Positions 3,677 to 5,149 of a stretch of DNA of 5,312 nucleotides are shown here, in pieces. A model generated the notes under the pieces. That model was not told where the DNA came from. It did no database searches and saw nothing but the letters and a program-made list of their open reading frames with translations. This stretch comes from a virus. Lineage: Duplodnaviria; Heunggongvirae; Uroviricota; Caudoviricetes. The DNA is taken from the IMG/VR virus record IMGVR_UViG_2778261418_000026; one strand, written 5' to 3'. Position 1 is the stretch's first letter. Each line of letters opens with the position of its first letter. Position numbers and translations under genes: made by a program.

Positions 3677-5149
3677 TTACCATAGTCCCATACGTACACG
3701 TAAAGTACCGTTAGAGTCATAGATCTGAATGATGTTATTACTAATTACCATTCGACCAGTACCACCAGTACCGTTAATGTAGATAGTACCTGCTTTGTTA
3801 ATCTGCCAGCCAGTGCTATTTGCTACATAGTTATTACTCTGTATAGTATTTGCAATCTTGGCAGTAGTGATACTAGCATCAACGATTTTAGCGGTGTTTA
3901 CTGCTAGGTCGGCAATCTTAGCGTTAGTAACGGCTAGGTCGGCAATATAGGCAGTACCAATACTGGCTTGTTGAATCATCGCGGTTTTTAGATAGGTAGT
4001 AGTACCGATAACCGTAAATGGTGCGGCCCCACCAACCGTAGGTGTACTTGCACCAGAAATAACAAACTTATCTGCGGCAAAGTAGATAGCACTAGTGTTA
4101 GTAGTACCACCAGCGATTAGTTTAAAACCAGCTACAGTACCGTTAGCATTGACACTAAGACTATATGAGGCGTTCACTTCTGCTTTAGTAGCTTTAGCTG
4201 ACATCTCTGTATTAACGCTTGCAAAACCAGCATCTGTACTAGCTTTCAATTGGTTGATTGCCGTAGTTTGTGCCGTATCATTATCTGCTACTGTCTGTGT
4301 TAGAGTTGTAATATTTGCTTTGTTACCATTTGCCGTTGCTTCGACTATATTGATCTTCTGACTTAATGCAATGTTATTGTCCGTTATTTGCGTCTGTAAC
4401 GTCGTCTCACTGGCTTTAATCGCTGCGTTAGTCTTTGTCTCGGATTGAGTGATCTTCGTCGCTGTATTGGCTGCTGCGTCGGCTACGGCCTTATCTAGTG
4501 TATCAGTCAAACGACCATCTAGATCTAGAATACTATTGATTTCGTCTGCATCAGCTTGTGTAAACTGATATTTGGAGTTGATAGTAATATTCACTTCTGG
4601 GCTGTACTGGATATTATCCATACCAAACTTATCAAATAAACCAATCTTAACGAAGTAATCGCCATCAGTGATATTTGGTACACTGTCAAACTCTGGCTTA
4701 TTACTAATATATGATTTAGTAGAAATAGCAGTACGCATAACGATATGTGCACCTGCATAATCTGGTTCGGTTGATTCAGTCCAACTAACGAATAAGTTAC
4801 CAAAACCACCGCCAACCTGTACGCCCTGTACTAATCCGCATTGTAAGTTTTCCGGTGTAATCTTAACTTCTGGTGAGAACGTGCCAGACATCCACCCCTG
4901 AGCAATAATCCCAATAGTTGGTTTACGTAGGCTGTATTTGTTCAAATCAAAGGTAAAGTTAAACTCATTACTACTTGAAATAAATGTATCTTTCAGTGTA
5001 GTACCATCATAGATATTAATCGTATAATGTTTAAAATACTGTTGGAATGTTTGACCATTAACCTTAATATTCTGTTGGTTATCCCAAATAATATTAAAGT
5101 CAGTCTCATTTGTAATTAATAGACCAGAAGTAGCATTTTTCAATTTCAC
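3677..5149 (-). CDS. Tail fiber / host-specificity (central fiber, J-like) protein, C-terminal portion; 490 aa from GTG 5149, with the frame open upstream to 5236
   Basis: Large ORF with a beta-rich Ig/FN3-like N-terminal region, a long Ala/Thr/Asn/Gln-rich helical segment, decapeptide repeats ([10 protein letters not shown] / [10 protein letters not shown] / [10 protein letters not shown]), and a short C-terminal domain. This composition and architecture is typical of phage fibers. The first canonical start is a GTG with no convincing SD, and the same frame stays open 29 codons further upstream, so the true 5' end is uncertain. Confidence 0.85.
3845..3970 (-). repeat. Degenerate tandem 30-bp repeats (about 4 units) inside the tail-fiber gene, encoding a 10-residue repeat
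   Basis: Plus strand shows GCAAT at 3851, 3911 and 3941, and GCTAGGTCGGCAAT at 3902-3915 and 3932-3945, with 30-bp periodicity. Matches the protein repeats xAKI[AV]D[LA][AS][VI]x. Confidence 0.6.

What the first reader, a model, noticed from the sequence alone, without database searches (positions are those of the whole stretch)
3845..3970. Tandem 30-bp repeats encoding a decapeptide repeat in the fiber shaft
About four degenerate 30-bp units encode [10 protein letters not shown]-like repeats. Such in-frame tandem repeats can expand or contract by recombination or slippage, changing fiber length. Unit-number variation between related phages is a plausible route to host-range or adsorption differences.
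Basis: seen in the sequence. Interest (0 to 1): 0.35.

Follow-up and report, generated by a model that had tools for sequence, protein, structure and literature searches.

The report
Decapeptide repeat in phage tail fibre
The repeat is real: it is an ordinary, widespread ten-residue structural repeat near the far end of a lambda-J-like central tail fibre of an E. coli prophage. Its copy number differs widely between distant relatives but hardly at all between close ones, and the gene here is broken by an IS2 insertion.

Summary
On the minus strand, window 3985-3836 encodes five in-register decapeptides: [50 protein letters not shown]. The 10-residue periodicity exceeded every shuffle. At DNA level only two units are alike (about 80%); the rest are 47-57% identical.

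The gene is the C-terminal ~519 codons of a ~1100-aa lambda-J-like tail tip protein (Pfam PF09327). The prophage sits in yegD, and IS2 cuts the gene at window 5238.

AlphaFold2 monomer models place the repeat between an α-helical shaft plus β-prism and a terminal β knob. The repeat is confidently non-helical and extended.

The unit (consensus TAKIADAAIT) matches the repeat of Pfam PF25296 and occurs in thousands of protein clusters. In homologues sharing the downstream anchor (KIxxxIQSxxY), the array ranges from 2 units (phi80) to about 32, in 10-residue steps. So copy number does evolve.

In the close clade the count is 5 in 26 of the 29 loci that retain the array, 6 in two and 2 in one. Both near-identical E. 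coli prophages also have 5. Window versus L002 shows 16 synonymous and 1 non-synonymous codon changes.

It is therefore a conserved structural spacer, not a slippage hotspot. Receptor specificity probably lies in the genes downstream.

The parts
3677..5237 (-). C-terminal ~519 codons plus the stop codon of a lambda-J-like tail tip (central fibre) gene. The 5' part of the gene is cut off by IS2. The 490-aa 'GTG' ORF 3677-5149 from the ORF list is only the part lying after an in-frame stop created at the junction.
   Evidence: Translation continues in frame to the IS2 junction and matches residues ~580-1100 of the intact 1100-aa orthologue L002:15676-18978. Pfam PF09327 scores 63.8 bits against a cut-off of 22. 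PHROG 496, 'tail fiber protein', and PHROG 31, 'central tail fiber J'. PDB sequence hits are DEV gp56 (9ZE4_N, E=1.5e-21), T1 gp33 (9L9P_S) and an SU10 fibre (7Z4B_EA).
5238..5312 (.). Terminal 75 bases of an IS2 copy that interrupts the fibre gene.
   Evidence: 95-100% identical to IS2 ends in many phage and E. coli records; the Shigella phage SfX hit is annotated as insertion sequence IS2. The sequence TAGACTGGCCCCCTGAATCTCC starts at 5238. The orthologous prophages L001 and L002 match only up to window 5236.
4196..4558 (-). α-helical shaft, presumed to form a trimeric coiled coil.
   Evidence: The AlphaFold2 monomer model of window 3680-4564 shows one continuous helix over residues 3-123, with pLDDT 96-98 over most of it. 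This corresponds to the α-helical shaft described for lambda gpJ and the F-pyocin fibre (PMC11101478, PMC13455828).
3989..4174 (-). β-prism (DUF1983 core) of the central straight fibre.
   Evidence: β strands at residues 131-192 of the model. pLDDT is low, as expected for a monomer model of a trimeric prism. The conserved motifs [13 protein letters not shown] and FAADKF align across homologues.
3836..3985 (-). Decapeptide repeat array of five units: u0 3985-3956, u1 3955-3926, u2 3925-3896, u3 3895-3866, u4 3865-3836. This is the finding.
   Evidence: Unit table and identity matrices. Shuffle tests. The region has pLDDT 77-93 but neither helix nor strand in the two AlphaFold2 monomer models. 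Family consensus is T-A-K-I-A-D-A-A-I-T, from 556 units in 73 proteins.
3888..3946 (-). The only stretch that registers as a DNA tandem repeat: two 30-bp copies, including a 14-nt exact direct repeat ATTGCCGACCTAGC (minus strand) spaced 30 nt apart.
   Evidence: Tandem Repeats Finder gives period 30, 2.0 copies, 82% matches. The repeat finder family D1 gives 80% identity. Longest exact match at lag 30.
3680..3835 (-). Conserved terminal β knob ([16 protein letters not shown]...LRVRMGLW), the distal end of the fibre.
   Evidence: β strands with pLDDT 87-94 over most of the knob. The sequence is conserved across homologues. It aligns with the C termini of DEV gp56, T1 gp33 and the SU10 fibre.
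2483..3636 (-). Three small ORFs directly downstream of the fibre gene: 3436-3636 (66 aa), 3140-3436 (98 aa) and 2483-3130 (215 aa). They are candidate adaptor and receptor-binding proteins that would dock on the fibre tip. This is inferred, not shown.
   Evidence: The ORFs are listed. PHROG 7961 and PHROG 4524, both of unknown function. RefSeq names the 215-aa protein a DUF8377 family phage-derived protein. The gene order matches phi80 J-gp22-gp23-cor, and there is a weak N-terminal match of the 98-aa ORF to phi80 gp22 (E=6e-4). The analogy is to DEV gp56-gp55-gp54 (PMC12892993).

Best explanation
The 30-bp periodicity is the DNA footprint of a structural decapeptide repeat with consensus TAKIADAAIT. 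It carries an inward-type hydrophobic residue every fifth position and a small residue two positions before each.

The repeat forms the distal, non-helical segment of the trimeric central tail fibre of a lambda-J-like tail tip protein. The order along the fibre is α-helical shaft, β-prism, five decapeptides, terminal β knob.

The array most likely folds only in the trimer, as an intertwined β-helix or β-prism-like rod. It would act as a rigid spacer that sets how far the knob, and the receptor-binding proteins presumed to dock on it (encoded by the genes just downstream), project from the tail tip.

Whole decapeptides have been gained and lost over long evolutionary times, giving 2 to about 32 units among homologues. 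Within this clade the number is held at five and the sequence is under purifying selection. It is not a slippage-prone contingency repeat.

In this genome the gene is split by IS2, so a full-length fibre is probably not made.

Shown: the repeat, its position in the protein, its homology, the copy-number spectrum, the DNA divergence and the IS2 disruption. Inferred: the trimeric β fold, the spacer or docking role, and the role of the downstream genes.
For: - Periodicity beyond chance.
- Minus-strand reading frame and unit table.
- Family membership: PF09327, J-like PHROGs, PDB homologues DEV gp56, T1 gp33 and the SU10 fibre.
- The intact orthologue is 1100 aa and has an FN3 domain.
- Domain order from AlphaFold2: helix at residues 3-123, β at 131-192, repeat at 194-243 with neither helix nor strand over most of it at pLDDT 77-93, β knob.
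- The same unit occurs in 5119 representative clusters and as up to 32 matched stretches per protein.
- hhalign probability is 98.6% against a PF25296-positive segment.
- Indels come in multiples of 10 residues.
- The array spans 2-32 units upstream of a fixed anchor. phi80 has 2 and L005 has 6.
- The close clade is almost fixed at 5.
- 16 synonymous against 1 non-synonymous codon differences between window and L002 in the array.
- Published models describe this part of the homologues as a C-terminal β-helix that carries a separately encoded adaptor and receptor-binding protein (DEV, PMC12892993), as a β-prism without its own receptor-binding domain (F-pyocin, PMC13455828), or as an α/β-helix fibre (T1, PMC11945409).
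Against: - No experimentally resolved structure of this repeat was found. In T1, F-pyocin, SU10 and DEV the corresponding part was unresolved or modelled with AlphaFold.
- My models are monomers. The absence of strands is only indirect evidence for an intertwined β structure, and I could not measure rise per unit.
- The spacer and docking roles rest on analogy.
- The downstream ORFs show only weak similarity (98 aa versus phi80 gp22, E=6e-4) or none (215 aa versus gp23) to phi80 proteins. They were not compared with DEV gp55 or gp54.
- The unit count uses a heuristic (hydrophobic positions spaced 5 apart upstream of an anchor) that can be off by one pentad.
Confidence: 0.75

Rival explanations
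1. The array is an active slippage or recombination hotspot. It would produce fibre-length variants within populations and between very close relatives, and so shift host range.
For: - A 14-nt exact direct repeat spaced 30 nt apart exists in the window.
- One-unit differences exist between fairly similar prophage fibres: L005, L097, L105, P0009 and P0016 have 6 units against 5.
- A divergence breakpoint between window and L002 falls inside unit u2, at about 3910.
Against: - Only two units exceed 70% DNA identity.
- The two near-identical prophages have identical unit numbers.
- 26 of the 29 clade loci that retain the array have 5 units.
- The extra unit in L005 is at most 20/30 identical to its neighbours, so it is not a recent duplicate.
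- Units are not homogenised, and the differences between orthologues are almost all synonymous.
- The 6-unit forms carry the extra unit at the same place with similar sequence (GDAQI[TG][TS]A[KQ]I). This suggests one or a few old events rather than recurrent slippage.
Confidence: 0.07
2. The repeat is mainly a docking surface, not a spacer. The downstream-encoded adaptor and receptor-binding proteins would bind along the decapeptide rod, so unit number sets how many partners, or which ones, can attach.
For: [quoted passage not shown]
- Three small ORFs follow the fibre gene here.
- L005, which has a fused lambda-type receptor-binding domain, lacks those ORFs.
Against: - The element conserved across all homologues, whatever their unit number, is the knob and the GWxIxKxG motif. 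Distal modules diverge after that motif, not within the repeat.
- Arrays of 20-32 units, and the same repeat in giant 2000-3900 aa proteins, fit a generic rod better than a specific binding site.
- No complex was modelled here.
Confidence: 0.2
3. The segment continues the α-helical coiled-coil shaft, with a 10-residue hydrophobic repeat.
For: The segment is rich in Ala, Ile, Leu and Lys, and it lies downstream of a long helix in a trimeric fibre.
Against: - Both AlphaFold2 models give no helix here at pLDDT 77-93, while the true shaft is predicted as a helix at pLDDT 96-98.
- Hydrophobic positions fall every 5 residues with Ala at i-2. That is a β-solenoid-type pattern, not a heptad, hendecad or similar coiled-coil repeat.
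- A β-prism separates the segment from the shaft.
Confidence: 0.03
4. The periodicity is a chance or compositional artefact of an Ala/Thr/Ile-rich protein.
For: Three of the five units are degenerate at DNA level.
Against: - No shuffle, global or local-composition, reached the observed lag-10 score.
- The same register is conserved in dozens of homologues, and indels respect it.
Confidence: 0.01

Closest known systems
Lambda gpJ-type tail tip / central straight fibre proteins (Pfam PF09327 Phage_Tail_Tip, formerly DUF1983): T1 gp33, phi80 gp21, DEV gp56, F-pyocin PyoF10
   Same: - The C-terminal architecture matches: FN3, α-helical shaft, β-prism, distal end (PMC11101478).
- The repeat and knob align with PF09327 profile positions 81-136.
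- As in T1, phi80, DEV and F-pyocin, the protein ends in a small knob rather than a receptor-binding domain, and small genes follow it.
   Different: - Lambda J itself has no recognisable decapeptide array and carries a fused Ig-like receptor-binding domain.
- phi80 has 2 units and the T1 gp33 alignment shows about 2, against 5 here.
- The prophage has no close relative among 50,697 deposited phage genomes; the best protein identity is about 35%.
- Its GC content is 35-41%.
- Here the gene is broken by IS2.
Pfam PF25296 'Decapeptide repeat region'
   Same: - The ten-residue unit is the same: TAKIADANVT in the PF25296-positive protein P0058 against [12 protein letters not shown] here.
- hhalign probability is 98.6% with 60% identity.
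- P0058 matches the window's repeat in 26 separate stretches.
   Different: - The window protein does not reach any reportable PF25296 score, even at E<=10. It has only five units, partly degenerate.
- PF25296 members seen here are giant multi-kilobase proteins with long, near-perfect arrays.
Pentapeptide-repeat β-helix proteins (A[D/N]LXX; Pfam Pentapeptide families)
   Same: There is a hydrophobic residue every fifth position with Ala two residues before it. The long-array relative P0058 nearly reaches the Pentapeptide_4 threshold, with 37.9 bits against 38.
   Different: - The window protein has no pentapeptide-family hit.
- The unit of conservation and of indels is ten residues, not five.
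- The monomer model shows no intrachain β ladder, as a monomeric solenoid would.
Repeat-built fibre shafts whose length scales with repeat number (adenovirus fibre triple β-spiral, T4 gp5 C-terminal triple β-helix); from general knowledge, not tested here
   Same: These are short sequence repeats that build a trimeric β rod, with unit number differing between relatives.
   Different: The repeat lengths and motifs are different (15-residue and 8-residue units). No sequence or fold match was obtained: Foldseek found only the SU10 fibre.

Membership tests
Pfam PF09327 Phage_Tail_Tip (lambda-J-like tail tip fibre) | The profile HMM score is above the curated gathering threshold. | tested here: met
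   63.8 bits against a cut-off of 22, E=1.8e-17. The best stretch is residues 416-470, profile positions 81-136. The intact orthologue scores 64.7 bits.
Lambda-J-like central fibre protein | Domain order: hub domains, FN3 domains, α-helical shaft, β-prism, distal module. | tested here: met
   - FN3 (PF00041) at residues 506-586 of orthologue L002.
- Helix at residues 3-123, β at 131-192 and the distal module in the AlphaFold2 model.
- PHROG 31 'central tail fiber J', E=4.2e-9.
- The N-terminal hub domains of the orthologue gave no Pfam hit and were not examined further.
- In the window itself the N-terminal half is missing because of IS2.
Lambda-J-like central fibre protein | The gene lies in a tail module, after tape-measure and tail-assembly genes and before lysis or accessory genes. 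| tested here: met
   In L001 and L002 the gene follows tail tube, long hypothetical (tape-measure-sized), DUF2163 and DUF6950 genes. It precedes small ORFs, a lysozyme and the prophage end at yegD.
Pfam PF25296 Decapeptide repeat region | The profile HMM score is above the gathering threshold (45 bits). | tested here: not met
   No PF25296 hit for the 490-aa protein at E<=1, nor for the isolated 65-aa repeat segment at E<=10.
Pfam PF25296 Decapeptide repeat region | The same ten-residue unit and register as bona fide members. | tested here: met
   hhalign of the unit profile A3 (first row is the window) against a PF25296-positive segment of P0058 gives probability 98.6%, E=5.9e-16 and 60% identity.
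Pentapeptide repeat proteins | A Pfam pentapeptide profile hit, with five-residue units as the unit of repetition. | tested here: not met
   No hit. Indels and conservation follow a 10-residue unit.
Contingency / slippage-prone tandem repeat locus | Several near-identical DNA units in tandem. | tested here: not met
   Only 2.0 copies at 82%. Other unit pairs share 11-17 of 30 bases. The longest exact repeat at lag 30 is 14 nt.
Contingency / slippage-prone tandem repeat locus | Copy number differs between otherwise near-identical genomes or within a population. | tested here: not met
   L001 (97.9% identical) and L002 (94.8%) both have the same five units. Population data cannot be tested with these tools.
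DEV-type receptor-binding fibre module (gpJ-like fibre plus downstream adaptor and receptor-binding protein) | The fibre C terminus is homologous to DEV gp56. | tested here: met
   9ZE4_N, E=1.5e-21, query residues 215-488 aligned to chain residues 159-425. The chain is identified as gp56 from PMC12892993.
DEV-type receptor-binding fibre module (gpJ-like fibre plus downstream adaptor and receptor-binding protein) | Two co-oriented small genes directly downstream that encode tip-binding proteins. | tested here: inconclusive
   Co-oriented ORFs of 66, 98 and 215 aa follow the gene with overlapping or abutting ends. They belong to PHROGs of unknown function. Homology to gp55 or gp54, and binding, were not tested.

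The most novel reading that the evidence does not exclude
The decapeptide array may be a general, modular length-setting element of phage central fibres and of other fibrous proteins. It would add or lose whole ten-residue turns (2 to about 32 units seen) to match the depth of the host's surface layer. Its fold has not yet been resolved experimentally. A weaker variant is that the array also serves as a homologous-recombination joint for swapping distal receptor-binding modules.
Probability: 0.25. Interest if true: 0.4.

Novelty: new member of a known kind. Interest (0 to 1): 0.2.

Why it matters
For this window it matters little. The repeat is a conserved structural element of a gene that is already annotated as a phage tail tip fibre protein and is inactivated here.

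More generally, a rod built from ten-residue units, which nature varies from 2 to about 32 copies while keeping the same flanks, is a ready-made spacer of adjustable length for engineering phage or tailocin fibres. It could also help explain how central fibres reach receptors beneath O-antigen or capsule.

It is also a caution for annotation. In-frame periodicity in fibre genes should not be read as hypervariability unless the DNA units are near-identical.

Tried and rejected
- Plasmid collection: no match.
- Deposited phage genomes: no close relative at DNA level. Only the IS2 end matched, so copy number could not be compared in named close phages.
- phmmer of a 295-aa long-array segment against PDB: no hit. 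This is probably because of the composition filter.
- A profile of units (A3) against PDB found only four weak hits, whose repeat parts are unresolved, AlphaFold-modelled or not described.
- Foldseek of the monomer model against PDB: only the SU10 fibre 7Z4B_EA was significant. The polo-box and other hits at E>0.1 were ignored as noise.
- Literature search for 'decapeptide repeat' together with 'tail fiber': zero papers.
- A first version of the unit-counting script used the wrong anchor spacing and found nothing. It was corrected.
- BLASTP of the 215-aa downstream ORF against phi80 gp23: no significant similarity.
- A repeat-mediated module-swap idea was considered and downgraded. Distal modules diverge after the GWxIxKxG motif of the knob, not within the array. 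Only one breakpoint, window versus L002 at about 3910, falls in the array.

Full report
**What is in the sequence**

The finding lies in a gene read on the minus strand. Translating window 3677-5149 gives a 490-residue ORF. It ends ...[69 protein letters not shown]...LRVRMGLW.

Cut in register, the array has five ten-residue units:
- u0, 3985-3956, [10 protein letters not shown]
- u1, 3955-3926, [10 protein letters not shown]
- u2, 3925-3896, [10 protein letters not shown]
- u3, 3895-3866, [10 protein letters not shown]
- u4, 3865-3836, [10 protein letters not shown]

**Is it more than chance?**

It is.
- At protein level, self-matches at lag 10 reach 15 of 30. The maximum was 12 in 2000 whole-protein shuffles and 14 in 5000 shuffles of the local 120 residues. 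Each shuffle was scored as the best of lags 2-30.
- Lags 20 and 30 also stand out.
- At DNA level, lag 30 gives 52 matches in 90 positions. Codon shuffles gave a mean of 37.9 and a maximum of 51.

The DNA repeat is weak, however. Tandem Repeats Finder reports only 2.0 copies at 82% (3888-3946). Only u1 and u2 are clearly alike, and all other unit pairs share 11-17 of 30 bases. The periodicity belongs to the protein.

**What the gene is**

The protein matches Pfam PF09327 (Phage_Tail_Tip, 63.8 bits against a cut-off of 22). It also matches PHROGs annotated as tail fibre and central tail fibre J.

Its best solved-structure relatives by sequence are:
- 9ZE4_N, E=1.5e-21
- 9L9P_S
- 7Z4B_EA
- the F2-pyocin fibre
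- a 'J-like tail tip protein gp24'

The literature identifies 9ZE4 as the Pseudomonas phage DEV tail tip with the gpJ-like short fibre gp56, and 9L9P as phage T1 with central fibre gp33.

**Genomic context**

The window has no close relative among deposited phage genomes or plasmids. It is 97.9% and 94.8% identical to prophages inserted in yegD of two E. coli chromosomes out of 5426 genomes.

In one of them, L002, the gene is intact. It encodes 1100 residues and has an FN3 domain.

In the window, the last 75 bases (5238-5312) are an IS2 end. The fibre reading frame runs straight into it. The window therefore holds only the C-terminal ~519 codons of an interrupted gene. The GTG start of the listed ORF is an artefact of an in-frame stop at the junction.

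**Where the repeat sits in the protein**

An AlphaFold2 monomer model of the last 295 residues shows:
- one long helix at residues 3-123 with pLDDT 96-98, which is the α-helical shaft;
- β strands at residues 131-192, which form the prism;
- a stretch with neither helix nor strand over nearly the whole repeat (residues 194-243, pLDDT about 77-86);
- a small β knob.

The 172-residue model agrees, with pLDDT 87-93 over the repeat. A confidently placed but unpaired extended chain is what a monomer model gives for a segment whose hydrogen-bond partners come from other chains. This is indirect evidence.

The layout matches the published one for lambda gpJ: hub domains, two FN3 domains, α-helical shaft, β-sheet prism, receptor-binding domain (PMC11101478).

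For the homologues that end as this one does, the literature describes:
- a 'C-terminal β-helix' of gp56 that carries the separately encoded gp55 and gp54, with gp54 as the receptor-binding protein (PMC12892993);
- a 'β-prism' without a receptor-binding domain in F-pyocin PyoF10, where PyoF11 and PyoF12 are the suggested binders (PMC13455828);
- an AlphaFold3 'α/β-helix' fibre for T1 gp33, whose C terminus was not resolved (PMC11945409).

I found no experimental structure of the repeat itself.

**How widespread the unit is**

A full HMMER search with the last 172 residues found 5119 representative clusters at E<=0.001. In many hits the repeat segment matched 10-32 separate stretches, in proteins of up to 3882 residues.

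From 556 units in 73 proteins that share the downstream anchor, the consensus is T-A-K-I-A-D-A-A-I-T. Ile, Leu or Val is almost invariant at positions 4 and 9, and Ala is common at positions 2 and 7.

The giant protein P0058 is a member of Pfam PF25296, 'Decapeptide repeat region' (E=3.5e-37). Its unit TAKIADANVT aligns with the window-type profile at 98.6% hhalign probability. The window protein itself does not reach a reportable PF25296 score. In Pfam terms its units are absorbed in the PF09327 profile.

The repeat also turns up in genomes of many bacterial phyla and in some archaeal assemblies.

**Does the copy number vary?**

Across the family it does, and in whole decapeptides. In alignment A2 the indels in this segment are -30, +10 and +30 residues.

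I counted hydrophobic positions spaced five apart upstream of the fixed anchor KIxxxIQSxx[YFW]. This gave 4 to 64 positions, almost always an even number, which is 2 to about 32 units. This count is a heuristic and can be off by one pentad.
- phi80 J has 2 units.
- Lambda J has no recognisable array.
- E. coli prophage L005 has 6 units, followed by a fused lambda-type receptor-binding domain, and it has no small downstream ORFs.

Among close relatives the number is nearly fixed. L001 and L002 have the same five units. Of the 32 closest loci from species genomes and viral contigs, three end before the array. Of the other 29, 26 have 5 units, two have 6 and one has 2.

The 6-unit forms carry the extra unit at the same place with similar sequence, which points to few old events. 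In L005 the extra unit is at most 20/30 identical to its neighbours.

Between window and L002 the array differs at 16 synonymous codons and 1 non-synonymous codon. This shows purifying selection on the peptide and no homogenisation of the DNA units. The longest exact repeat at lag 30 is 14 nt in the window, 10 nt in L002 and 9 nt in L005. That is enough for rare slippage but not for a hotspot.

**Mechanism proposed**

The repeat is a structural rod module of the trimeric central fibre. It sets the distance between the β-prism and the terminal knob.

By analogy with DEV, T5, Drexlerviridae and F-pyocin, the knob region is where separately encoded tip proteins attach. The ORFs of 66, 98 and 215 residues just downstream are the candidates.

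The fold, the spacer role and the docking role are inferred. The anatomy, the homology and the copy-number pattern are shown. A link between unit number and host range remains untested.

**Verdict**

The feature is an ordinary member of a catalogued repeat type within a known protein family, in a gene inactivated by IS2. Interest is low.

The one point of wider interest is the very large range of unit numbers around a fixed anchor, in a repeat whose structure has apparently not been resolved experimentally.

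Noticed in passing
window 5238-5312: An IS2 end (TAGACTGGCCCCCTGAATCTCC...) interrupts the J-like tail tip gene at about codon 580 of 1100. The prophage copy in this genome is therefore probably defective for tail assembly. The two orthologous prophages lack the insertion.
   Followed up: yes
window 2483-3636 (minus strand): Three small co-oriented ORFs (66, 98 and 215 aa) follow the fibre gene. The 98-aa and 215-aa products fall in PHROG 7961 and PHROG 4524 (unknown function), and RefSeq names the 215-aa product DUF8377. The layout mirrors phi80 J-gp22-gp23-cor and DEV gp56-gp55-gp54, so they are candidate adaptor and receptor-binding proteins. The only sequence link is a weak N-terminal match of the 98-aa ORF to phi80 gp22 (E=6e-4).
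   Followed up: partly
window 1190-1678 (minus) and 1668-2120 (plus): A GIY-YIG SegE-like endonuclease ORF (PF19835, E=2.4e-16) abuts and slightly overlaps a divergently oriented phage lysozyme gene (PF00959). It may be a homing endonuclease lodged in the lysis region.
   Followed up: no
window 3717-3909 versus L002; window 1907-4126 versus L001: Divergence is mosaic. Window and L002 are almost identical over 3717-3909 (one difference) but differ by 12-19% per 100 bases from 3910 to about 4400. That breakpoint lies inside repeat unit u2. Window and L001 are identical over 1907-4126 and diverge from 4127. This indicates recombination within the fibre gene among these prophages.
   Followed up: partly
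whole window: GC content is 35-41%, far below that of the E. coli chromosome. The element is rare, found nearly complete in 2 of 5426 complete E. coli genomes, and has no close relative among 50,697 deposited phage genomes. Window position 1 is the prophage end next to a truncated yegD.
   Followed up: partly
L001:15677-18983: In the closest relative (NZ_CM151386) the fibre gene is annotated as two overlapping CDS, 16122-18983 and 15677-16150. That implies a frameshift or an assembly error near the prism region. Only L002 carries an apparently intact gene.
   Followed up: no
L001:24107-27808 and L002:24093-27317: A 3.2-3.7 kb tail fibre gene lies between the head-tail joining genes and the tail tube gene of this prophage. 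In L002 it is annotated as a pyocin knob domain-containing S74 family peptidase. This is an unusual position for a fibre gene.
   Followed up: no
P0058-P0203; L014-L086: The same decapeptide unit occurs in giant proteins of 2000-3900 residues, with up to 32 matched stretches. It also occurs in contigs assigned to many phyla, including Bacteroidota, Verrucomicrobiota, Firmicutes, Planctomycetota and archaeal MAGs. In PDB 9EG4 it occurs in chain H, named orf16, of the Legionella phage LME-1 capsid entry.
   Followed up: partly
window 158-194 and 479-508: Two short AT-rich tandem repeats (periods 15 and 8-10) lie inside small hypothetical ORFs near the prophage end.
   Followed up: no
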